Below are positions 4,250 through 13,809 of a DNA stretch of 21,523 bases, piece after piece. Source of the DNA: Deltaproteobacteria bacterium Ga0077539 (GTDB lineage Bacteria; Myxococcota_A; Polyangia; Polyangiales; Ga0077539); the NCBI GenBank assembly GCA_001465015.1, contig LNEO01000117.1, positions 1-21,523 of the forward strand, written 5' to 3'. A program made the position numbers and the translations under genes. The notes below the pieces were generated by a model, which saw nothing but the letters and a program-made list of their open reading frames with translations, did not search any database and had not been told where the DNA came from. Each line of letters opens with the position of its first letter. Positions within the stretch are counted from its first letter, which is position 1.

Positions 4250-4387
4250 ACTTCCTGCAGCGGAGCGGATCGAGGCTAGCATACAAGCCGTTCGAAGCGT
4301 CCACGCGCGGTGATTTCAAGCTCCAAGGGTGTCGTTATATGGCATTCTTGTGGGCGCGATCACCCGTCGCTGCATCGTCCCAACTCC

Positions 4388-5974
4388 ATGCCCATCCTGA
4401 CCGACGAAGAACGGCTCGGCTCCACGCTCGCCGGAAAATACGTGATCGACGCGATCATCGGGCGCGGCGGAATGGGTGCGGTCTTCTCGGGACATCACGC
4501 GATCTCGGGCCGGTCGGTGGCGATCAAGGTTCTTCACTCGCATCACGTTCGTGATCCGGTGGCGGTCCATCGGTTCCTCAACGAAGCGAAGACCGCCGCG
4601 GCGTTTCGCCACCCAAACGTCGTCGACGTGATCGACGTCGATGCGCTCGATGACGGGACCGTGTACCTGGTGCTCGAGCTGCTCGAAGGCGAGACGCTCG
4701 GCGAGCTGCTCGACCGAGAGAAGAAGCTCTCGGTCGAACGAACGTTGTCGACGTTGATCCCCGTGCTCCGCGCCGTCGCGCACGCGAACCGGATGAACAT
4801 TATTCACCGGGACCTCAAGCCGGACAACATCTTCCTCGCGCAGAGCAAGCGCGGCGTGGTGTCGGTGGTCCTCGACTTCGGCATCGCCAAGACGCTCGAC
4901 GGAGGCGAACAGAGCGTCAATACGGTCACCGGCACGATTTTGGGAACGCCGCAGTACATGCCGCCGGAGCAAGCGCTCGGGGCGAGCGAGAGCGCGCCTT
5001 CGCTCGACGTGTACGCGATGGGAGTCGTCGCCTTCGAGTGCCTCGCCGGACAGCGTCCGATCGATGGCCCGACGCCGACGGCGATCCTCGCGAAGCTCAT
5101 CAACGACCAATCGACGAAGCTCTCGAGCGTCGCGCCCGATCTTGCTCCGAGCCTCGTCGACATCATCGAGAAGGCGAAGAGCCACGATCCTGAAGCACGC
5201 TTTCAGACCTGCGACGCCTTCGCCGACGCTCTCGAGCAAGTCGCGGCGCAGCTCGGCATCACCGTCGAGATCGTCGATGCGACCGGAAGGCTCGCGACGC
5301 ACGAAGGCGGGCGAAGCCAGCGACTTCGGACGGTCTCGGGCGTCGATGTTTCGGCGCGCTACGCCGCGGTGAAGGCCCAGTCCAATCCGCCGCCGATTAT
5401 CGCCGAAACCATGGACGAGGCGCCGCGCGGTACGCCGAGCAGCGGCGTGGCGATTCCGCGCAGACCGCACAGCACGTTCGCTCCGACCACTTCGTCGCGC
5501 AGCCCCGGCGGGTCGCCAGCGTCGCTCATCGGTGCGGCTGTGGCCTTTGTCATCGTCGCCGGCGCGGGCGCTCTCACGCTCCGCCGAACGACCGCGACGC
5601 CCTCGCGCCGCGCCCCGGACATCACGCCCACCGCCGCCGTCACGCCCTCCGCTGTCCTGCCGCGCCCATCCGCGATCGAGCCCGCGCTGTCTGTTGTGCG
5701 ACCTACGGTCACGCCTCCGACGACACCAGCAGCAGTGTTGTCCGGAACGACGGCGAGTCGCAGCGACGCCGGCGCGTCACTGACCGACCCCGAGCGTCGC
5801 GCCGCAAGAACGCAACGCGTCGACCGCGCTCACTCCGCCACGTCCGGCGCCACCGCCGGGCCTTCCGCTGCACAGCCCCAGGTCGCTCGACCCGGGACAA
5901 CAACGACAACCGCCACGACCAGCGCTTCGACCAACGGCAATCGTCGACTGCCCGAGGTCGCTCGCGAGTGGTGA
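4388..5974 (+). CDS. Ser/Thr protein kinase (Hanks type), single TM, extracytoplasmic Pro/Thr/Ser/Ala-rich tail
   Basis: Motifs [33 protein letters not shown] and [10 protein letters not shown]. One TM helix ([19 protein letters not shown]) is followed by about 130 aa of low-complexity P/T/S/A sequence. ATG is at 4388. Confidence 0.85.
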
Positions 5975-5984
5975 AACAGCTCCC

Positions 5985-7034
5985 GTGAACTTCGCAAAGA
6001 GTCGACCAAGCGTCTGTCCCCTGCGCCGTGCGTTTTGCGCCTGGACGCTAGCGGCCGCGTCGACGGCCGCTTCGAGCGCGGCGCTCGCACAGGTGGACGG
6101 CGGTTCGCCGGACGGAGCGGCGGCTTCGATGAGCGCGGCGTCCACCAATCCGGACGCGGGCGCGCGGCCGATCGATGCGCGCGCGGCCGAAGCGCGACGC
6201 GCGTTCGAGCGAGCCGTCGCGTTCTCGCAAGAGGAGCGCTGGGGCGAGGCGCTCGAGGAGTTTCGGCGCTCGATGGAGCTCGTCGAGCGTCCGAACGCGG
6301 CGTTCAACATGGCCACGACGCTCGTGAGGCTCGGCCGGCACGTCGAGGCGATCGCCGCGTTCGAGCGGTACATGGAGATCACCGACCGCGTCGCCGACGC
6401 GGTTCGCGTCGCCAACGCGCAAGAGCAGATCACAGCGGAGCGAGCGATCGTCGCGACCGTGGTGTTGACCGTCGATCCGCCGCAGGCCGAGCTTCGCGTG
6501 GACGGGCGCAGCAGAGGCGACGTCACAGGAGCAACCCGCACGATCTCGCTCGATCCAGGCTCGCACACGATCGAGTTGCAAGCGCCTCGACACCGACCGT
6601 TTTCGACTTCGTTTCGCCTGACCAGCGGCGAGAGGCGAGAGATCGCGGCGCGTCTGGTCGCCGTGACGACCGCGACGCTCGAGGTGAGCCCCAGCGTCGC
6701 CACCGCGTCGGTGCTCGTCGACGGCGCGCCGTTCGGGCGCGGGCCGCAGCAGGTCCCATCGGGGCCACACGAAATCATCGTCACCGCCGTCGGGCACGAT
6801 CGATACCGCCGTCGCGTCACGCTCGAGCCCGAGGCGTCGCTCCGCGTCGACGCCGCTCTGCAACGCACGGTCATCGCGCGTGGGCTCCACGAGAACCCGC
6901 TGTTTTGGGTCGCGGTCGGCGGCGGAGTGATCGCGGTCACGACCGCGGTGGTGCTCGGCGTCGTGTTCGGCACGCCTCAGCCAGAGACGATGACCTCGAC
7001 CGGCATCGTGATTCAGGGCTTGTCCGGCCGCTGA
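5985..7034 (+). CDS. secreted/membrane-anchored PEGA-domain protein with TPR-like N-terminal region
   Basis: GTG start 10 nt after the STPK1 stop. Signal peptide (RPSVCPLRRAFCAWTLAAASTAASSAALA|QV). Two PEGA-like beta modules (ATVVLTVDPPQAELRVDGRSRGD..., ATLEVSPSVATASVLVDGAPFGRGPQQV...). C-terminal TM helix LFWVAVGGGVIAVTTAVVLGVVFG. Confidence 0.65.
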   Translation: MNFAKSRPSVCPLRRAFCAWTLAAASTAASSAALAQVDGGSPDGAAASMSAASTNPDAGARPIDARAAEARRAFERAVAFSQEERWGEALEEFRRSMELVERPNAAFNMATTLVRLGRHVEAIAAFERYMEITDRVADAVRVANAQEQITAERAIVATVVLTVDPPQAELRVDGRSRGDVTGATRTISLDPGSHTIELQAPRHRPFSTSFRLTSGERREIAARLVAVTTATLEVSPSVATASVLVDGAPFGRGPQQVPSGPHEIIVTAVGHDRYRRRVTLEPEASLRVDAALQRTVIARGLHENPLFWVAVGGGVIAVTTAVVLGVVFGTPQPETMTSTGIVIQGLSGR

Positions 7035-8794
7035 CCGCGCGAGGCGCGAACGCGCGCGACTTCGCGCGTGAAGATTCGCCGCAGGATGGCCGAGGCGCAG
7101 CCGTAGGTGCTCTCGACGCCGAAGTAGCTCAGGGACTTCGAGAGCAGCTCCTGTCGTCGCGAGTAGGGCGTGTCCGAAGCGTAGTGCACGACGCCGAGCT
7201 CGAAGGGAACTGCGTTGGACAAGTGCACGATCGAGCCGCTCGGGTGGCGGTCGGGAAACGCGAGCTCGAACACCGCGCTCAGATAGGGACCGGCCTCCAT
7301 CTCCAGCACTGTGTATCCGTCGCGGTAGTAGTCGGCCATGTATGCGCGGTTCTGCAGAAACGCCGACCGAACGGTGAGCGCCTTCTGTCCGTCGAGCACG
7401 GTTCCGCGGCGCATGAAGGGCTCGAGGTCACCGGCGCTGAACGCGTTGCGAAACATGTAGCGATTTCGCGAGTGCTCGTCGAACACGGTGTCCGAGAGCA
7501 TCACGTCGCCGACGCGTCCGTTGAGCGTCGCAGCCTTGCCCATCACGTAGACGCCGAGCATGTCGCTCGCGCCCTGAACGAGCCGCGTGAGCAGGTGATA
7601 CGCCGCCATGCCCAGCGGGTAGTCGATGTTGAGCACGACGGCGTCGCTCTGCGCCAGCAGCTCGATGCCATCGACGCGCACGCGAGGATCGAGCCGCTCG
7701 GGCTTGAGCGCCGCGAGGTCGACCAGCTGCGCCGAAACGTCCACCTTTCCTGGGCTGGGGACGGTGCGAACGCCGGACTGCGCGTCGAAATCTTGCACCT
7801 GCTGCAGGAGCGAGCGCGTGTCGACGTCGGACTCGTGAAGCCACGCGCGCAAGAGGTAGTACGTGAGGTTCGACAGCGTGTCCTCGTCGCGGTTCTCGAG
7901 CGCGCTCTCGACGACCTCCGCGAGCCGCTCCGGGTTCTTGCGGCGAACGAAGTCGATGATCGATTCGCGATGGGTCCGCGCGTATCCACCACACAAATTC
8001 AAGATCGAGTGCGTGTTGGACGAGACGAAGTAGAGCGGCGGACGCTTGCGCGGCGCGTCGCGGACGTACGCGGGCTCGATCCCGCTCCACCAGCGATGGG
8101 CTGCGCGCTGATAGCCCGTGTAGGTCGTCGAGAGAACGCGCAGGCGCAGGTCGCACTCGCGCGAGACGATCGCGCGAAGACCGCGGTCGATCCCGTCCCC
8201 GAGCCCGGCGCGAAGCGTCGCGACGCCCGCAGCGTCGAGGCCGAGGAGCGTGGCGAGCTCGGCGTCGTCGATCGAGAGCGAGTCGCCTTCTTCGGTTCGC
8301 GCGATGGCGCGGCCGAGCGCTGTGTGCGCGAGCCGTTCGTGGAGCTTGTTCCACTCGATCTGGTAGGCCGTGACGATCGGGATGAGGTCGTCGAGGTCGC
8401 TTGTGCTCGTGAGAAACACCGCGAGCGTCTTGTCTCCGTCGTAGCGGAGCGGCCGTCGACGGCCTCGCGTGCGCACCTCCGCCCAGTCGCGCACCTCGAG
8501 GCCGATGGTCTCGAACTGCTCGTGTGACTGCCCGAGGATGATTCGCTCGATCGACGCCATGCAGGACGGCAGGCGCGCCGCCGCATAGGCGAAGGCCGCG
8601 ACGTCGGGAACGACATCGTGCGCCCCGAGGTGCAGCGTCGAGTCGCTGAACGCATGCGCTTCCTCGAACGCGCGGACGCGCACCTCGCCGGTCGTGCGCA
8701 AGAGCGAGTAGTACGTTCGAATATAGAGTTCGACGCCGTCGCTCGCGCCCTGGAGGCCGCCGTCGTCGCGGGGAGTCACTTTGCTAGAGGTCAT
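7013..8794 (-). CDS. AMP-nucleosidase-like protein: long unknown N-terminal region plus C-terminal PNP/MTAN-superfamily nucleoside phosphorylase/hydrolase domain
   Basis: The C-terminal ~230 aa show PNP_UDP_1-like motifs: VVLNIDYPLGMAAYHLLTRL, VMGKAATLNGRVGDVMLSDTVFDE, and TVLEMEAGPYLSAV (the E-M-E catalytic motif). The architecture resembles Amn (regulatory N-domain plus catalytic domain). ATG is at 8794, with a GTG alternative at 8800. The 3' end overlaps the PEGA gene by 22 nt in convergent orientation. Confidence 0.5.
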   Translation of the reverse strand: MTSSKVTPRDDGGLQGASDGVELYIRTYYSLLRTTGEVRVRAFEEAHAFSDSTLHLGAHDVVPDVAAFAYAAARLPSCMASIERIILGQSHEQFETIGLEVRDWAEVRTRGRRRPLRYDGDKTLAVFLTSTSDLDDLIPIVTAYQIEWNKLHERLAHTALGRAIARTEEGDSLSIDDAELATLLGLDAAGVATLRAGLGDGIDRGLRAIVSRECDLRLRVLSTTYTGYQRAAHRWWSGIEPAYVRDAPRKRPPLYFVSSNTHSILNLCGGYARTHRESIIDFVRRKNPERLAEVVESALENRDEDTLSNLTYYLLRAWLHESDVDTRSLLQQVQDFDAQSGVRTVPSPGKVDVSAQLVDLAALKPERLDPRVRVDGIELLAQSDAVVLNIDYPLGMAAYHLLTRLVQGASDMLGVYVMGKAATLNGRVGDVMLSDTVFDEHSRNRYMFRNAFSAGDLEPFMRRGTVLDGQKALTVRSAFLQNRAYMADYYRDGYTVLEMEAGPYLSAVFELAFPDRHPSGSIVHLSNAVPFELGVVHYASDTPYSRRQELLSKSLSYFGVESTYGCASAILRRIFTREVARVRASRGQRPDKP

Positions 8795-8986
8795 CGTCAC
8801 CGAATGCGGCGTAGGCTCGCAGAATCACCCCGAGAAACACAATGGCCCGCGAATGTGGCGCTCGCGTGAATGACAGAGAACTGTCGCCAAATCGGAAACT
8901 GCGGCATCGTTGTGGTAGTTGAAGAGCGGGCGCGGCCGCTGCGACAGGTCCAGCGAAGCCCGATCGCTCGAGGAAGAAGGCACACA

Positions 8987-9472
8987 ATGGGATTCGATCC
9001 AAACGGCGGACAAGGTGGACAAGGTGGCGGATGGCCTGGCGGACCGCCGGGCGGGCAACCGCAAGGCGGAGCTTGGGGCGGACAGCCGCAGCAGCCCGGC
9101 GCGCCGTTTCAACCGCAGCAGCCGCAGGGCGGTTTCGGCGCACCGCAGCCCGGCTTCGGCGCACCGCAGCCCGGCTTCGGCGCACCGCAGCCCGGTTTCG
9201 GCGCGCCCCAGCCGGGCATGGCGCCCTACGGAGCTCAGCCGCCAATGGGCGCGATGGGCGGCGCCAAGCCGAAGCAGACGATGTTGCTGCTCGCGATTCT
9301 GCCGTTCCTCTTCGGATTCAGCGGCATTCACAGCTTCTACGCTGGCCACACCGTGAAGGGCATCCTTCAGTTCATCACCTTCGGCGGCTGTGGCATCTGG
9401 CAGCTGATCGACATCATCGGGATCTTCAACGGCAACTACCGCGACAGCAACGGTCAGCCGCTGAGCCCGTAA
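8987..9472 (+). CDS. TM2-domain membrane protein with N-terminal Gly/Pro/Gln-rich disordered region
   Basis: ATG 8987 lies 8 nt downstream of a GAGGAAGAAGG Shine-Dalgarno sequence. The C-terminal TM2 domain (two helices, LLAILPFLFGFSGIHSFYAGH...GGCGIWQLIDIIGIF) is recognised from memory. The N-terminus is MGFDPNGGQGG followed by the (GFGAPQP)4 repeat. Confidence 0.7.
   Translation: MGFDPNGGQGGQGGGWPGGPPGGQPQGGAWGGQPQQPGAPFQPQQPQGGFGAPQPGFGAPQPGFGAPQPGFGAPQPGMAPYGAQPPMGAMGGAKPKQTMLLLAILPFLFGFSGIHSFYAGHTVKGILQFITFGGCGIWQLIDIIGIFNGNYRDSNGQPLSP
9131..9214 (+). repeat. 4 x 21-nt in-frame tandem repeat (ggcttcggcgcaccgcagccc) encoding (GFGAPQP)4
   Basis: Read directly: three near-identical copies plus a degenerate fourth. 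It lies inside the disordered linker of the first TM2 gene. The minus-strand ORFs 8784..9245 and 8825..9772 are its antisense shadow (RAAVRRS repeats). Confidence 0.8.
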
Positions 9473-9494
9473 GCGCCACGCCGAGCCTCGCGAG

Positions 9495-10145
9495 ATGGGT
9501 TTCGATCCAAACAATGGACAGGGAGGCGGCTGGCCGCCAGGCAACCCGCCGCAAACGGGCTGGCCTCCCCCAACCAACTCTGCACAAGGCTCGGCGTCCG
9601 GCGCCTCCCCACCGGGCAGCTTCGGCGAGCAAGCGTCCAACGCTTCGCTCGTCCCGGTGGGGAGCCCCTTTGGGTTGCCGCCCTCGCCCACGTCGCCGAG
9701 CAGCGTGAGCGACAAAGACCAAGCGACGGTCTTCTTGCTGTCGCTGTCGGGCCTGCTCGGTATCGCCGGCATCGACCGGTTCTTCTTGGGTCAGCCGGGG
9801 CTCGGGATCCTCAAGTTGCTCACCGCAGGCGGCTGCGGATTCTGGTCGCTGGTCGACACCGTCACGATCGGGATGGGCAAGATGCGCGATGCCCAGGGCC
9901 GACCATTGCGCACCGAGCCGACCGTCGGCACACCAACTCGCAAGCAGTCCGTCGCGTTCTTGCTGTCGTGTCTCGGGTTCTTCGGGATCTCCGGGATCGA
10001 CCGCATCTATCTCGGCCACACTGGCCTCGGCATCGCCAAGCTGCTGACCGGCGGTCTGTGCGGACTCTGGACGCTCTACGACTTCGTGATGATCGGCACG
10101 GGCAAGGTTCGCGACGCCCAGGGCAACTCGCTCTTGCCCGAGTGA
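9495..10145 (+). CDS. tandem TM2-domain membrane protein (two TM2 repeats), paralog of the upstream gene
   Basis: The N-terminus MGFDPNNGQGGGWPPG mirrors the first TM2 gene (MGFDPNGGQGGQGGGWPGG). Two TM2 units are present: LLSLSGLLGIAGIDRFFLGQ...GGCGFWSLVDTVTIG and LLSCLGFFGISGIDRIYLGH...GGLCGLWTLYDFVMIG. Each unit ends in ...DAQG(R/N). Confidence 0.7.
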   Translation: MGFDPNNGQGGGWPPGNPPQTGWPPPTNSAQGSASGASPPGSFGEQASNASLVPVGSPFGLPPSPTSPSSVSDKDQATVFLLSLSGLLGIAGIDRFFLGQPGLGILKLLTAGGCGFWSLVDTVTIGMGKMRDAQGRPLRTEPTVGTPTRKQSVAFLLSCLGFFGISGIDRIYLGHTGLGIAKLLTGGLCGLWTLYDFVMIGTGKVRDAQGNSLLPE

Positions 10146-10260
10146 ACAGCGCGTGTCACGTCACACGGGCGCCGCTCATGACGTCCCTGGCCGAGAGTAG
10201 ACGTGGTCTCGCGCCGTCGGCGCGCGAAGCCGTCGCCGTCTGGCAGCGGAGCCGCTGTCG

Positions 10261-10770
10261 ATGAGCGCGCCCGACGAACACGGCGCGGTTCACCCGCGAC
10301 GATCGCCGAGGGTCATCGCGGCGGCGGTGCTCACCGCGGCGTCGCTCGTCGCCGCGTCGCTCTACGCAGGGGTCGCCACCAGCGGCGGGGCGACGTGTCC
10401 CTCGCGCTGGCTGTTTCATTCGCCGTGCGCGGGCTGCGGGATGACTCGAGCCTTCGCCGCGCTCGTTCACGGAGACATGGCGTACGCGCTGAGAGCGAAC
10501 GTCGCCTCCCCCGCGCTGTTCGCGCTCGCGCTCGGCGTGGGGCTGGTCTTCGTCGCGCAGCTCGCCACCAACCGCCCGATCTTTCGTGAGCTGTCGGCGA
10601 AGCGGTGGGTGCGCGCTGTGCTGTCGGCCGCGCTGATCGCGCTCGCTTTGATTGCATGGGTCAGCAATCAAATGCGCCACCGCGCCGGCGAGGGACCGCT
10701 GCACTTGCGCTCCTGGCACCAAGAGAGAAACCGCGCTCCTCTGGCGGACCTACCGGGCGGCGAATCGTAG
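10261..10770 (+). CDS. DUF2752-family membrane protein (CP...CxGCGxTRA motif)
   Basis: CPSRWLFHSPCAGCGMTRAFAALVHGDMAYAL matches the DUF2752 signature. Several TM helices are present. It is on the same strand and directly downstream of the TM2 pair. Its stop lies 2 nt from the convergent STPK2 stop. Confidence 0.55.
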   Translation: MSAPDEHGAVHPRRSPRVIAAAVLTAASLVAASLYAGVATSGGATCPSRWLFHSPCAGCGMTRAFAALVHGDMAYALRANVASPALFALALGVGLVFVAQLATNRPIFRELSAKRWVRAVLSAALIALALIAWVSNQMRHRAGEGPLHLRSWHQERNRAPLADLPGGES

Positions 10771-10772
10771 GG

Positions 10773-12665
10773 TCAATTGCGGATCGTCGGGCACTGGCAG
10801 AGCGATCGCCGGGTGAGCATCGCGCACTGCCCTGCGCGCAAGCGCGCGACGTCATCCGCGGCTGGACCGGGTCCGAGGCGAGCGATCTGACCGACCACGC
10901 TCTGCAGCTCGTCGCATCGGTCGCTCGTCCGCAAGAGCACTCGCGCGCGTTGGGTCGGATCGAGGAGGGCGATGCGCTCGCGCGCGAGCCGCCCCGAGCG
11001 ACGCCGCGCGTCGTTGCTGGGACCGAACACAGTGTCTTCCGCGAGGACTCGGGCTGCGGTCCGCGAACCCGCGAAGGAAGCCGCGTGCAAGAGGGTCTCT
11101 GCCGCGCTCGCAGCGGAGTCATCGGCGAGCGCCTTGGCGAGGGCGCGAACGAGCGGCTCGTCTTCGACGAGGCTCGAGTCGCGGGCGACCGCGTCGGCGA
11201 AGGTCGCGACCGCCTCGGTGTTGCGTCGGTCCGCGCTGAGCAAGAGCGCGAGGTGATAGGCGACGAGTCCATCGTCGTCGGCGTGCGGTCGTCGCGCTCG
11301 TCGCGTGCGGAGCATGGCAATCGCGGAGGCGGAGTCACCGTGGGCCGCGAGGCCCAGGGCGCGCGCCACCTCGCTGTCTTCGCGAACGGCGGTCAGCCGT
11401 CGAGCGATCGGCAGCGCTCGCGGCTCTTTCGGCGTCCGATGCGTGAGCGTGTGCACGACGTTGTACACGCCGGACAAGAACGCCCCGACCGATACCAGGA
11501 GCACCGGCAACAGCACGACGACCGGGACGAATCCGAGCCGTGGAATCCAGTAGACCGGCAACCCAGCGATCTTCGTCGGCGGGACGAACGTCCCTTGCGC
11601 GCTCGGCGATCCGCCGCGGTCTTGCACGGTCGGAGCCGCGTCGGACACCGTCGGCGGCGCGGTGAGCTCGCTGCTCGAGGCGAGGAGCGTATGGTGGTGC
11701 TCGACGGAGTCCGCCGGCTGCGTCGACGCGTAGGCAACGGCGAGCCGCTGCACGGAGTCGGCGAGCGCTTCATCGAGCGCCGCCATCGCGTCGGCGACCG
11801 AGGCATATCGCTCGATAGGGCTCTTGGCGAGCAAGCGCTCGAACACCGCGTCGAGCGCGGGAGGCAGGTCCGGAGCGAACTCGGTGGCGCGCGGGATGGG
11901 TCCGTTGACCTGCAGATCGAGCAGCTCGACGAGGTTCTTGTGATCGAAAGGCTTGCGTCCCGACAGCAGCTCGAACGCGAGGATGCCGAACGCGTACTGA
12001 TCGGCCGCAGCGTCGACGCGCCGACCGAGCGCTTGCTCGGGGGACATGTAGTGCGGGGTTCCGAAGACCATGCCGGTCTGGGTGAGCGGCTTCTCGTTGT
12101 CGGACGCGGTGGTCAGGCGCGCGATGCCGAAATCGATGATCTTGACGAGCTCGTCGGCGCCCTGCCGCTCGATCACGAGGATGTTCTCGGGCTTTAGGTC
12201 TCGGTGAACGATCCCGAGGCTGTGCGCGCGAGAGAGCGCGGAGGCGATCTGTCGAAGGAGCTTCAACGACCGAATGAGCGGCAGCCGCGGTACGGACGAG
12301 CTGACCTCCCTCAGCGATCGGCCGAGGATGTACTCCATCGCGAGAAAGAACGTGCCGTCTTGAAGCTGGCCGAAGTCCGTGGCCGCCACGACGTTCTCGT
12401 GTTCGAGCTGAGCCATCGCGCGCGCCTCGCGCTCGAACCTCGCGCGCACCTCCGGGTTGGCGTGCATGTCCGCGTGCAGCGTCTTGATCGCGACCTTCTT
12501 GTGCAGCGCGACGTGCTCGGCGACGTACACCGCGCCCATTCCGCCTTCGCCGATGCGCTCGATCACGCGAAATCGCCCGGCCACCAGCGTTCCGATCAAC
12601 GGGTCGGGCGGCGGCGCGAGCAGGGCGTTCGAAGGCCCGACAGTCTGTGCGTCGCGGTCGGTCAT
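10773..12665 (-). CDS. Ser/Thr protein kinase (Hanks type), single TM, C-terminal alpha-helical (TPR/HEAT-like) extracytoplasmic domain
   Basis: Motifs GEGGMGAVYVAEH, VAIKTL, HRDLKPENILV, DFGIARL and GTPHYMSPEQ. TM helix VPVVVLLPVLLVSVGAFLSGV. ATG at 12665, TGA at 10773-10775. Confidence 0.85.
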   Translation of the reverse strand: MTDRDAQTVGPSNALLAPPPDPLIGTLVAGRFRVIERIGEGGMGAVYVAEHVALHKKVAIKTLHADMHANPEVRARFEREARAMAQLEHENVVAATDFGQLQDGTFFLAMEYILGRSLREVSSSVPRLPLIRSLKLLRQIASALSRAHSLGIVHRDLKPENILVIERQGADELVKIIDFGIARLTTASDNEKPLTQTGMVFGTPHYMSPEQALGRRVDAAADQYAFGILAFELLSGRKPFDHKNLVELLDLQVNGPIPRATEFAPDLPPALDAVFERLLAKSPIERYASVADAMAALDEALADSVQRLAVAYASTQPADSVEHHHTLLASSSELTAPPTVSDAAPTVQDRGGSPSAQGTFVPPTKIAGLPVYWIPRLGFVPVVVLLPVLLVSVGAFLSGVYNVVHTLTHRTPKEPRALPIARRLTAVREDSEVARALGLAAHGDSASAIAMLRTRRARRPHADDDGLVAYHLALLLSADRRNTEAVATFADAVARDSSLVEDEPLVRALAKALADDSAASAAETLLHAASFAGSRTAARVLAEDTVFGPSNDARRRSGRLARERIALLDPTQRARVLLRTSDRCDELQSVVGQIARLGPGPAADDVARLRAGQCAMLTRRSLCQCPTIRN

Positions 12666-12721: not shown

Positions 12722-13717
12722 TCAGCGAAACCAGCCCCAGCCGCGGCGGTGACCGCGACCACGGTGTCGACCGCGGTGTCGACCGTGATGGTGATCGTCG
12801 TCATCGTCGTCGTCTCCGCCGACCACGACGACTCCCGGGATGGCAGGCGCGATGACGATCGACGGCGCGACGATCTCAGCGTGGACGCCGACGACAGGCG
12901 TCGCGACGACCGCACCACGCGCTGGGCCGCGCGCCACGACGACCGCCGTGGGGATCGTCGGAACGACCACGACGTTCGACACGACGACTCCGCGATGATG
13001 ATGCCCGCGAATCTCGACATCGGGCACCATCACGACCACGTCTGGCGGGAGCGGCACGCCCGCGTGCGCGACCCACACTTCGCCTTCGAGCCGGGGCTGC
13101 ACAGGAACGACGCGACCTTCGACGCGGACGTTGACCGTGGGGACGGTCACCTCCGCGGGAGGAACGGCGCGACCCTCGCGGTCGTAGAAGTAGAACGCCA
13201 CGTCGCCGCCGCGCGCCGCGACGGTTTCGACTGCGTAATCGCCCACGAGCTGCACCCGGCCGCCGCGCTGTGCCGCGGGCAACGGAGCGGTTGCCGCCAC
13301 GGCGATCGGCGGCGCGACCACCTCGATCGCGGGCGCGGTCGCAGACGGCTGCACGCTCACCTCGACGGGGTAGGTCCCGACGGGAATTCCAGCGACGCGA
13401 CCGACGTAGCGATGCTCGGCTTCGTCGTAGGTCATCGCGACCGGAAGCGGATCTTCATCGGGACGACGGATCGAGACCGAGACCGAGTGCGCTTGCAACG
13501 GTTCGCCTCGAGGGTCGCGCACGTAGGCAACGATCCTTCCATCGGGCTGCGAGGTCACCTCCGCAGAGATCGCCGCTCCGGCAGCGACGGATCCTCCGTG
13601 CTCACCAGGCGCTGCGACGCGCGGCTCCGAGCTCACCGTGGGTGGTCGCGGCGAGTCGCCGCAGACGCGAAGCGCGGAGAAGGCGAGGAGCGAGAGAACT
13701 GTGATCTTCATGGTCAT
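12722..13717 (-). CDS. secreted Pro/Val-rich protein with C-terminal D7-HHH-(GRHR)3-GWGW tail (possible metal-binding); function unknown
   Basis: Signal peptide MTMKITVLSLLAFSALRVCG (ATG 13717, alternative 13711). Two internal beta-rich repeats (AYVRDPRGEPL..., AFYFYDREGRAVPP...). The tail is encoded by a 12-nt direct repeat at 12763-12786 and a GAC/GAT run. The upstream Arg-rich part of ORF 12722..14626 and the antisense ORF 12647..13915 were rejected. Confidence 0.5.
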   Translation of the reverse strand: MTMKITVLSLLAFSALRVCGDSPRPPTVSSEPRVAAPGEHGGSVAAGAAISAEVTSQPDGRIVAYVRDPRGEPLQAHSVSVSIRRPDEDPLPVAMTYDEAEHRYVGRVAGIPVGTYPVEVSVQPSATAPAIEVVAPPIAVAATAPLPAAQRGGRVQLVGDYAVETVAARGGDVAFYFYDREGRAVPPAEVTVPTVNVRVEGRVVPVQPRLEGEVWVAHAGVPLPPDVVVMVPDVEIRGHHHRGVVVSNVVVVPTIPTAVVVARGPARGAVVATPVVGVHAEIVAPSIVIAPAIPGVVVVGGDDDDDDDHHHGRHRGRHRGRGHRRGWGWFR

Positions 13718-13809
13718 CTCCGGGAAGGCCGATCGCTGAGGCTCGGCGCGAAACGCGACGATCACTCCCAGTGTAGGCCACTCGTCGCGCGGGCGCTGGA
13801 CTGCGAACG

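What the first reader, a model, noticed from the sequence alone, without database searches (positions are those of the whole stretch)
8987..10770. TM2-TM2-DUF2752 membrane gene trio framed by two Ser/Thr kinases
Three same-strand genes sit close together: a single-TM2 protein, a double-TM2 protein, and a DUF2752 (CPGCG-motif) polytopic protein. All three families lack an assigned bacterial function. Eukaryotic TM2D proteins act in Notch/amyloid pathways. The trio lies between STPK1 with its PEGA protein and a nucleosidase-like gene on one side and the convergent STPK2 on the other. This looks like an uncharacterised membrane signalling or envelope module that may be a kinase substrate or partner. 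Both TM2 proteins carry long disordered Gly/Pro/Gln/Trp-rich N-termini.
Basis: partly seen in the sequence, partly recalled or inferred. Interest (0 to 1): 0.6.

Follow-up and report, generated by a model that had tools for sequence, protein, structure and literature searches.

The report
Conserved TM2–DUF2752 membrane gene pair
The three genes are real, and their core, a TM2 hairpin gene followed by a DUF2752 gene, is a tightly linked pair of unknown function found in at least five bacterial phyla, whereas the two flanking kinases are local neighbours and not part of it.

Summary
Observation confirmed. Pfam assigns 8987-9472 to one TM2 domain, 9495-10145 to two TM2 domains and 10261-10770 to DUF2752, all above the curated cut-offs.

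- Of 80 DUF2752 loci from many phyla, 25 carry a TM2 gene. It is always the immediate neighbour and never lies elsewhere in the ±8 kb flanks.
- Of 59 evaluable TM2-anchored metagenome loci, 50 (85%) have DUF2752 directly adjacent on the same strand, usually within a few bases or overlapping.
- DUF2752 also pairs with an unrelated small membrane family, DUF4234 (23 of 80 loci). These partners again carry zinc-ribbon, GYF or Pro/Gly-rich N-termini.

The kinase framing is not supported:
- No kinase occurs in any of the 75 TM2–DUF2752 pairs found in the two surveys, all outside the window's clade.
- The kinases and DUF6909 are syntenic only within this myxobacterial clade.
- The disordered tail of the first TM2 protein contains no Ser or Thr.

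DUF2752 has three invariant cysteines and a confident three-helix model with no solved relative. I found no paper on DUF2752, nor any on the function of bacterial TM2 proteins.

Most likely this is a co-translated inner-membrane hetero-oligomer with DUF2752 as the shared core subunit. Its biochemical role is inferred, not shown.

The parts
8987..9472 (+). TM2a: a 161-aa protein with a 96-residue Gly/Pro/Gln-rich tail that contains no Ser or Thr, followed by one TM2 helical hairpin of the H-S-F variant (GIHSFYAG) and a short C-terminal RDSNGQPL tail.
   Evidence: ORF. Pfam TM2 E 5.3e-14. Hydropathy shows two hydrophobic segments, 96-120 and 126-148. Tail composition. The MGFDPN start is shared with TM2b and with orthologues, which supports the 8987 start codon.
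9122..9224 (+). A 21-nt tandem repeat of 5 copies inside TM2a. It encodes the heptapeptide PQPGFGA five times, an FG-type low-complexity array.
   Evidence: Tandem Repeats Finder: score 143, 87% matches. Translation.
9495..10145 (+). TM2b: a 216-aa protein with a 74-residue Pro/Gly/Ser-rich disordered tail and two TM2 hairpins of the D-R-F type (GIDRFFLG and GIDRIYLG). Each hairpin is followed by a basic (K/R)DAQGxxL tail.
   Evidence: Pfam TM2 E 5e-28, two stretches. AlphaFold2: residues 71-216 at pLDDT 80-94, residues 1-60 averaging 45-50. Invariant G89, G92, D94, R95, G99, K107, T110, W117 and D121, with the equivalent set in repeat 2.
10261..10770 (+). DUF2752: a 169-aa protein with three transmembrane helices (16-36, 83-103, 115-141). 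Between TM1 and TM2 lies a cysteine motif with three invariant cysteines: C46-x9-C56-A-G-C59-G-M-T62-R63.
   Evidence: Pfam DUF2752 E 9.4e-15. In a 70-sequence alignment C46, C56, C59 and G60 are invariant, and P55, T62, R63 and G71 are at least 90% conserved. AlphaFold2 pLDDT 89.7, pTM 0.80.
8872..8885 (.). Perfect palindrome GACAG-AGAA-CTGTC in the divergent DUF6909/TM2a intergenic region, about 100 nt upstream of the TM2a start. It is a candidate operator; its function was not tested.
   Evidence: It occurs once in the window, against 0 expected from shuffles. It is conserved at the same relative position in relative L004 but not in L005.

Best explanation
The window carries a local elaboration of a widespread two-gene membrane module, in which a TM2-hairpin gene is followed on the same strand by a DUF2752 gene. 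Here there are two TM2 genes, one single-hairpin and one double-hairpin.

Shown:
- The pair is conserved and tightly linked across phyla.
- DUF2752 also pairs with other small membrane families.
- The kinases and DUF6909 are not part of the conserved unit.

Inferred:
- The genes are co-transcribed and, in most genomes, translationally coupled.
- Their products assemble into an inner-membrane hetero-oligomer.
- DUF2752 is the common core subunit, probably a dimer.
- Each TM2 protein has both ends in the cytoplasm. Its hairpin loop with the conserved D/H-R/S-F motif faces the outer side of the membrane.
- The DUF2752 three-cysteine motif lies on that same outer face. There it binds a metal ion or forms a disulfide, possibly together with the conserved cysteine in TM2 helix 2.
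- The variable cytoplasmic N-termini (FG/PG-rich disordered tails here, GYF or zinc-ribbon domains elsewhere) tether cytosolic partners to this membrane core.

The physiological output is unknown.
For: Conserved linkage:
- DUF2752-anchored survey: 25 of 80 loci from Bacteroidales, Actinomycetota, Bacillota, Spirochaetia and others have a TM2 ORF. It is always the immediate neighbour (gap at most 89 nt, or overlapping). 24 of 25 are on the same strand. None lies elsewhere in the ±8 kb flanks.
- Pfam confirms TM2 on the upstream ORFs.
- TM2-anchored survey: 50 of 80 loci, and 50 of 59 evaluable ones, have an adjacent same-strand DUF2752. In 47 it lies downstream, typically 2-8 nt away or with a 4-nt overlap.
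- Distant relative P0009 (36% identity) sits behind a zinc-ribbon+TM2 gene with no kinase nearby.

DUF2752 as a shared partner:
- 23 of 80 loci have a DUF4234-like gene directly adjacent, 22 of them upstream on the same strand. DUF4190 and DUF4870 account for two loci each.
- TM2 and DUF4234 profiles are unrelated (hhalign probability 2.5%).
- The partners share zinc-ribbon, GYF_2 or Pro/Gly-rich N-termini.

Pair rather than trio:
- L004 keeps only a TM2a-type gene and L005 only a double-TM2 gene.

Dimer hint:
- Natural tandem-duplicated DUF2752 proteins exist, each with two cysteine motifs.

Topology:
- N-terminal zinc-ribbon and GYF domains and a strongly basic inter-hairpin linker place both TM2 ends in the cytoplasm.
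- Lys/Arg density favours an N-in orientation for DUF2752, which puts the cysteine loop outside.

Cysteine lead:
- Three invariant cysteines in DUF2752.
- 93 of 95 paired TM2 hairpins carry a cysteine in helix 2.
Against: - No direct evidence of physical interaction.
- Some double-TM2 genes stand alone, in Sorangium and in P0249. About 36% of DUF2752 loci showed no recognised partner. The pairing is therefore frequent, not obligatory in cis.
- In the window the TM2b-DUF2752 gap is 115 nt, so translational coupling is not evident here.
- The topology rests on charge counts only.
- His70 is only 63% conserved, so a classical four-ligand metal site within DUF2752 alone is not supported.
- The helix-2 cysteine is also present in the stand-alone Sorangium TM2 proteins.
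Confidence: 0.55

Rival explanations
1. One reading: the trio is a signalling or envelope module coupled to the flanking Ser/Thr kinases, which phosphorylate the disordered TM2 N-termini or partner with the trio.
For: - STPK2 and the 329-aa unknown gene lie downstream of DUF2752 in the window and in relatives L004 and L005.
- STPK1+PEGA lie upstream in L004 and in the P0006 context.
- The TM2b tail has 16 Ser/Thr in 74 residues.
Against: - No kinase in any of the 50 TM2-DUF2752 pairs from metagenomes or the 25 pairs from genomes.
- Kinases in the 9 of 80 DUF2752 loci that have one lie at least 2.6 kb away, and none of those loci is TM2-paired.
- STPK2 is absent in the P0006 context. STPK1 is absent in L005.
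- The TM2a tail has no Ser or Thr. Orthologous tails are mostly Gly/Pro/Gln/Phe repeats.
- STPK2 is convergent and so belongs to a separate transcript.
- Kinases are dense in these genomes. Two flank an unrelated stand-alone TM2 gene in Sorangium.
Confidence: 0.08
2. DUF2752 is a small membrane enzyme that acts on its neighbour. It could be a thiol-disulfide oxidoreductase using its CxxC, or another cysteine-modifying enzyme. Its target would be the conserved membrane-embedded cysteine of TM2 and DUF4234 proteins. It would not be a stoichiometric subunit.
For: - An invariant C-x-x-C, a third invariant Cys, and near-invariant Thr-Arg immediately after the motif look more like an active site than packing residues.
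- The partner families are unrelated in sequence, but both carry a cysteine in a transmembrane helix.
- One DUF2752 type serves several partner families.
Against: - Overlapping stop and start codons suggest roughly equimolar production, which is commoner for complex subunits than for enzyme-substrate pairs.
- The partner cysteine shifts position (TCGG versus GGCG) and is missing from 2 of 95 hairpins.
Confidence: 0.15
3. The TM2 hairpins form an ion-conducting or holin-like pore, and DUF2752 is its regulator or immunity partner.
For: - TM2 hairpins carry invariant buried Asp, Arg and Lys residues.
- TM2 proteins occur in phage protein families of unknown function.
- One DUF2752 homologue gives a weak, sub-threshold Holin_2-3 hit, E 0.0011.
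Against: - DUF2752 is absent from 2.9 million viral contigs and from PHROGs.
- No lysis, toxin or defence genes are nearby, and PADLOC returns nothing for the trio.
- The pair sits in ordinary chromosomal contexts in many phyla.
Confidence: 0.1
4. The three genes are unrelated neighbours, adjacent by chance or through clade synteny alone.
For: Within the clade, other neighbours such as DUF6909 and STPK2 are also syntenic. Synteny alone therefore does not prove a functional link.
Against: The adjacency recurs in at least five phyla with entirely different surrounding genes. In the flanks examined, TM2 is found only as the immediate neighbour of DUF2752.
Confidence: 0.02

Closest known systems
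Bacterial TM2-domain proteins (Pfam PF05154; source names 'TM2 domain-containing membrane protein YozV' and 'NINE protein')
   Same: Both TM2 proteins score well above the Pfam threshold and have the two-helix hairpin. TM2b carries the family's invariant G-x-D-R-F-Y-L-G ... K-L-x-T ... W ... D pattern.
   Different: TM2a has H-S-F in place of D-R-F. Both have long FG/PG-rich disordered N-termini, where other lineages have zinc-ribbon or GYF_2 domains. No function is known for any bacterial member.
DUF2752 (Pfam PF10825)
   Same: Length, the three helices and the C...PCxGCG-x-TR motif all match. There are 1098 cluster representatives at E <= 1e-3.
   Different: The motif reads CAGCG instead of CPGCG. 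This clade adds a roughly 30-residue C-terminal tail. The family has no described function, no solved structure and no paper in the library searched.
Eukaryotic TM2D1-3 (almondex, amaretto, biscotti), which act in Notch signalling and are linked to Alzheimer's disease (PMC8714088)
   Same: They share the roughly 50-residue TM2 domain, including the D-R-F motif.
   Different: From my own knowledge, not tested here: the eukaryotic proteins have a signal peptide and an extracellular N-terminal domain, which would give the hairpin the opposite orientation. The bacterial proteins have no N-terminal hydrophobic segment, and their relatives carry cytoplasmic-type N-terminal domains. No eukaryotic DUF2752 counterpart is known to me. 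The bacterial partner therefore says nothing direct about Notch.
DUF4234 proteins with a zinc ribbon and Pro/Gly-rich N-terminus
   Same: They occupy the same position, immediately upstream of DUF2752 on the same strand. The overall design is also the same: a cytoplasmic adaptor or disordered tail followed by a small membrane domain. This includes Polyangiaceae proteins with GPPPGGYG repeats.
   Different: The membrane domain is unrelated to TM2 in sequence (hhalign probability 2.5%).
Membrane thiol-disulfide oxidoreductases (DsbB, VKOR) and zinc-ribbon 'knuckles' (CPxCG)
   Same: A CxxC sits at a membrane interface. CPxCG is the classical rubredoxin or zinc-ribbon knuckle sequence (my own knowledge).

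Membership tests
TM2 domain (PF05154) | Profile HMM score above the Pfam gathering threshold (27.9 bits) | tested here: met
   TM2a scores 52.6 bits. TM2b scores 97.5 bits with two stretches.
TM2 domain (PF05154) | Two transmembrane helices joined by a short linker | tested here: met
   Hydropathy shows paired hydrophobic segments. The AlphaFold2 model of TM2b has helices 76-90 and 101-126, and again 151-166 and 176-201, at pLDDT above 80.
TM2 domain (PF05154) | Conserved G-x-(D/H)-R-F-Y-L-G ... K-L-x-T ... W ... D/E pattern | tested here: met
   Both TM2b repeats have it. These residues are invariant in a 54-sequence alignment. TM2a has the GIHSFYAG variant and keeps the T, W and D residues.
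DUF2752 (PF10825) | Profile HMM score above the gathering threshold (27 bits) | tested here: met
   54.9 bits, E 9.4e-15.
DUF2752 (PF10825) | C-x9-(P)C-x-x-C-G-x-T-R motif between the first two transmembrane helices | tested here: met
   C46, C56, C59 and G60 are invariant, and T62 and R63 are at least 90% conserved, in 70 sequences. The window protein has all of them, with Ala in place of the commoner Pro at position 57.
Conserved TM2-DUF2752 gene pair (defined here) | A TM2 gene immediately adjacent to DUF2752 on the same strand | tested here: met
   In the window, TM2b ends at 10145 and DUF2752 starts at 10261. The same arrangement occurs in 25 of 80 DUF2752-anchored loci and 50 of 59 evaluable TM2-anchored loci.
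   No kinase in any of the 75 pairs outside the clade. One clade member has lost STPK2.
   The TM2a tail has 0 Ser/Thr. The TM2b tail has 16 of 74. Orthologous tails are mostly poor in Ser/Thr. Actual phosphorylation cannot be tested with these tools.
Eukaryotic TM2D proteins | N-terminal signal peptide and an extracellular domain ahead of the TM2 hairpin | tested here: not met
   There is no hydrophobic segment before residue 75 in TM2b or residue 96 in TM2a. The N-termini are low-complexity and poorly predicted. No dedicated signal-peptide predictor was run.
DsbB/VKOR-type membrane oxidoreductase | Four-helix-bundle fold with a CxxC, detectable by structure comparison | tested here: not met
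Zinc-ribbon or rubredoxin-type metal site | Four conserved metal ligands, usually two CxxC knuckles | tested here: inconclusive
   There is one CPxCG-like knuckle plus a single invariant Cys. The candidate fourth ligand, His70, is only 63% conserved. Metal binding cannot be tested here.
Anti-phage defence system (PADLOC) | Match to a known defence-protein model | tested here: not met
   No PADLOC hit for TM2a, TM2b, DUF2752, DUF6909 or the 342-aa unknown. Only the generic kinase domain of STPK2 matches kinase-type models.

The most novel reading that the evidence does not exclude
DUF2752 is the universal core subunit of an undescribed class of bacterial inner-membrane complexes. It docks interchangeable small 'adaptor' proteins (TM2, DUF4234, DUF4190, DUF4870), perhaps through a shared intermolecular cysteine or metal site at the outer membrane face. 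The adaptors' cytoplasmic zinc-ribbon, GYF or FG/PG-rich disordered tails would then build a proline-rich/GYF interaction network or a condensate on the inner face. The result would be a transmembrane redox or metal-responsive scaffold, and the first functional handle on the TM2 domain shared with the human Alzheimer-linked TM2D proteins.
Probability: 0.15. Interest if true: 0.75.

Novelty: new member of a known kind. Interest (0 to 1): 0.45.

Why it matters
TM2 and DUF2752 are large protein families of unknown function. The DUF2752 query alone finds 1098 cluster representatives at 50% identity. TM2 is also the defining domain of the human TM2D proteins implicated in Notch signalling and Alzheimer's disease.

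Showing that bacterial TM2 genes are nearly always followed by DUF2752 turns two orphan families into one testable system. So does the finding that DUF2752 serves several unrelated small membrane families. The system has clear first experiments: co-purification, cysteine mutants, topology mapping and paired deletions.

Cultured hosts encode the pair, including Gordonia, Nocardioides, Janibacter and Williamsia.

The work also removes a tempting but unsupported kinase-substrate story from this locus.

Tried and rejected
- **Heteromer prediction.** I built 23 paired TM2x2-linker-DUF2752 fusions (A5) for AlphaFold2.
- **Genome scan with the 70-sequence alignment.** It failed because no stretch was conserved enough. 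A 13-sequence alignment worked.
- **PDB sequence searches.** Empty for TM2b and DUF6909, and only non-significant hits (E >= 0.17) for the DUF2752 profile.
- **Literature.** No paper mentions DUF2752 or PF10825, and none addresses bacterial TM2 function. The search for YozV, COG2314 and DUF4190 returned only noise. The 'TM2 domain' of Cap1 in a CRISPR preprint refers to a helix name, not the Pfam family.
- **Viral contigs.** No DUF2752.
- **Rfam.** Nothing in the window.
- **Promoter and terminator scans.** At chance level.
- **NCBIfam and PADLOC.** Nothing for the trio.
- **DUF6909 as a partner.** Rejected. It is a highly conserved family (more than 7,600 homologues), and in Vulgatibacter and Nannocystis it has no TM2 or DUF2752 nearby.
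- **TM2 and DUF4234 as distant homologues.** Rejected (hhalign probability 2.5%).
- **Natural TM2-DUF2752 fusions.** None among the longer DUF2752 proteins checked. Five of them are instead DUF2752 tandem duplications.
Full report
**Observation**

The three + strand ORFs are present as described. Pfam gives the following:
- TM2 for 8987-9472 (161 aa, E 5.3e-14, one domain).
- TM2 for 9495-10145 (216 aa, E 5e-28, two domains).
- DUF2752 for 10261-10770 (169 aa, E 9.4e-15).

All three exceed the curated cut-offs. The same three products are called on the public MAG contig that holds this sequence (GCA_022841605.1). The intergenic gaps are 22 nt and 115 nt.

The flanks also match the description: STPK1 (4310-5974 +), a TPR+PEGA protein (5985-7034 +) and the convergent STPK2 (10773-12665 -). 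The 'nucleosidase-like' gene (7013-8800 -) is a full-length DUF6909 with no nucleosidase family hit.

**Anatomy of the TM2 proteins**

TM2a has a 96-residue tail made of 72% Gly, Pro and Gln, with no Ser or Thr. The tail includes five copies of PQPGFGA, encoded by a 21-nt tandem repeat at 9122-9224. One hairpin of the H-S-F variant follows.

TM2b has a 74-residue Pro/Gly/Ser-rich tail. Residues 1-60 average pLDDT 45-50 in the AlphaFold2 model, while the two D-R-F hairpins are confident at pLDDT 80-94.

Both proteins, and their orthologues, begin MGFDPN(G/N)GQGG. The three hairpins are 41-58% identical to one another, so they are paralogues.

**Anatomy of DUF2752**

DUF2752 gives a confident model (pLDDT 89.7, pTM 0.80). 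It has transmembrane helices at 16-36, 83-103 and 115-141, with short helices around the cysteine motif.

In 70 diverse family members C46, C56, C59 and G60 are invariant. P55, T62, R63 and G71 are at least 90% conserved. His70 is only 63% conserved.

**Context in close relatives**

- L004 (DUF2752 66% identical) has DUF6909, a single TM2a-type gene, DUF2752, STPK2, a 325-aa unknown and an M17 peptidase.
- L005 (48% identical) has DUF6909, a double-TM2 gene, DUF2752, STPK2 and a 329-aa unknown, but a different upstream region without STPK1.
- A further relative, P0006, has STPK1, PEGA, DUF6909, a 258-aa gene and DUF2752, followed directly by the M17 peptidase. STPK2 is missing.

The clade therefore always keeps DUF6909, at least one gene in the TM2 position, and DUF2752. 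The number of TM2 genes and the kinases vary.

**Broad survey from the DUF2752 side**

An exhaustive search finds 1098 cluster representatives at E <= 1e-3. A scan of one genome per species with the motif PCPGCG[ML]TR returned 80 loci. They come from Bacteroidales, Actinomycetota, Bacillota, Spirochaetia, Acidobacteriota, Planctomycetota, Armatimonadota, Cyanobacteria and Myxococcota.

A locally built TM2 profile finds a TM2 ORF in 25 of the 80 loci. In every case it is the immediate neighbour of DUF2752, with a gap of at most 89 nt or an overlap. 24 of 25 are on the same strand. There is no TM2 hit anywhere else in the ±8 kb flanks.

Pfam scanning of the upstream same-strand ORFs confirms TM2 (18 ORFs). 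It also shows DUF4234 (13), zinc ribbons (18), DZR (10), GYF_2 (6), DUF4190 (2) and DUF4870 (2).

A local DUF4234 profile finds an adjacent DUF4234-like gene in 23 of 80 loci. These include Polyangiaceae proteins of 400-480 aa with a zinc ribbon, long GPPPGGYG repeats and a C-terminal DUF4234-like domain. TM2 and DUF4234 profiles are unrelated.

About 64% of DUF2752 genes therefore sit next to a gene for a small membrane domain of one of these four families, commonly behind a cytoplasmic adaptor or disordered tail.

**Broad survey from the TM2 side**

A metagenome scan with D-R-F-type TM2 patterns returned 80 loci. Fifty carry DUF2752 directly adjacent on the same strand. That is 50 of the 59 loci with enough flanking sequence to judge (85%). 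In 47 of them DUF2752 lies downstream. Stop-to-start distances are typically 2-8 nt or a 4-nt overlap, the pattern expected for translational coupling.

Subtypes travel together. A short, roughly 100-aa form of DUF2752 always follows one particular double-TM2 subtype.

The pairing is not absolute. Double-TM2 genes in Sorangium and in P0249 stand alone.

**Kinases and DUF6909**

- No kinase and no DUF6909 occurs in any of the 80 TM2-anchored loci.
- Among the DUF2752-anchored loci, 9 of 80 have a kinase within 8 kb. None of these is TM2-paired, and the kinase is always at least 2.6 kb away.
- All nine lie in kinase-rich phyla. In Sorangium, two kinases also flank an unrelated stand-alone TM2 gene.
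- DUF6909 has more than 7,600 homologues and is about 60% identical across Myxococcota. In Vulgatibacter and Nannocystis it has no TM2 or DUF2752 neighbour.

Both associations are therefore clade synteny. The absence of Ser and Thr from the TM2a tail argues directly against it being a Ser/Thr kinase substrate.

**Comparison with known structures and literature**

- PDB sequence searches are empty or non-significant.
- No paper in the library mentions DUF2752 or PF10825, and bacterial TM2 proteins appear only in gene lists.
- TM2 proteins occur in phage families of unknown function. DUF2752 does not occur in phage families or in viral contigs.
- PADLOC and NCBIfam give nothing for the trio.
- Rfam finds nothing in the window.

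**How it most likely works**

The conserved, often overlapping gene pair is shown. What follows is inference.

The products probably form a stoichiometric inner-membrane complex. N-terminal zinc-ribbon and GYF domains in orthologous partners put both ends of each TM2 hairpin in the cytoplasm. So does the basic linker between the two TM2b hairpins. The conserved D/H-R/S-F loop then lies at the outer face of the membrane.

Lys/Arg density favours an N-in orientation for DUF2752, which places its three-cysteine motif at the same outer face.

Natural tandem duplications of DUF2752 suggest that it acts as a dimer.

DUF2752 has exactly three invariant cysteines and no conserved fourth ligand. In addition, 93 of 95 paired TM2 hairpins carry a cysteine in helix 2. 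A shared metal site or disulfide at the interface is therefore an attractive lead, but it is untested.

The variable cytoplasmic tails would recruit or cluster cytosolic partners. Here they are FG/PG-rich, and elsewhere they are GYF domains, which in eukaryotes bind proline-rich peptides (my own knowledge).

The rivals, in order, are an enzyme-substrate relation, a pore with a regulator, and the kinase model.

**Verdict**

The kinase framing and the 'trio' as a unit are not supported.

The genes are new members of catalogued families of unknown function. The conserved pairing, and the role of DUF2752 as a shared partner of several small membrane families, appears undescribed in the literature I could search. 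Interest is moderate.

Noticed in passing
window 17480-20005 (+): An 841-aa ORF with major-vault-protein domains (MVP_shoulder E 1.6e-25, Vault_3 E 4.7e-8) in a Myxococcota MAG. It is syntenic in relatives L004 and the P0006 context. A bacterial vault-protein homologue is unusual.
   Followed up: partly
window 7013-8800 (-): A full-length DUF6909 protein (E 4e-203) with more than 7,600 homologues, about 60% identical across Myxococcota. It has no solved relative by sequence and no named function. It looks like a conserved enzyme-sized orphan family. It lies next to the TM2 genes only in this clade.
   Followed up: partly
window 8872-8885: A perfect palindrome, GACAGAGAACTGTC, in the divergent DUF6909/TM2a intergenic region. 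It is conserved at the same relative position in L004 (9346-9359) together with a neighbouring block of about 30 nt (AAATCGGAAACT.CGGCATCGTTGTGGTAG). Candidate operator or promoter elements.
   Followed up: partly
window 12722-13750 (-): A protein of about 329-342 aa with no Pfam, NCBIfam, PADLOC or PHROG hit, directly downstream of STPK2. It is co-conserved with STPK2 in L002, L004 and L005 and is probably the kinase's operon partner.
   Followed up: no
L023, L039, L044, L047, L053, L071, L081, L082 (genes immediately upstream of DUF2752): Polyangiaceae and other Myxococcota proteins of 400-540 aa with an N-terminal zinc ribbon, several hundred residues of GPPPGGYG/GFGPPPG repeats and a C-terminal DUF4234-like membrane domain. 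These are extreme membrane-anchored low-complexity proteins.
   Followed up: partly
P0009, P0033, P0038, P0050, P0097: DUF2752 proteins that are internal tandem duplications, each with two cysteine motifs. The repeat unit is one helix, the cysteine motif and a second helix.
   Followed up: partly
window 10770 / 10773: The stop codons of DUF2752 (+) and the convergent STPK2 (-) are 2 nt apart. In L004 the two genes overlap by 25 nt. The 3' ends of the transcripts must therefore overlap, and no terminator-like element fits between them.
   Followed up: no
L168 8813-9715 (-): A 300-aa GYF_2 protein lies convergent to a stand-alone double-TM2 gene. GYF_2 domains are fused to TM2 in Actinomycetota. 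This hints at a recurring link between GYF and proline-rich tails around TM2 proteins.
   Followed up: no
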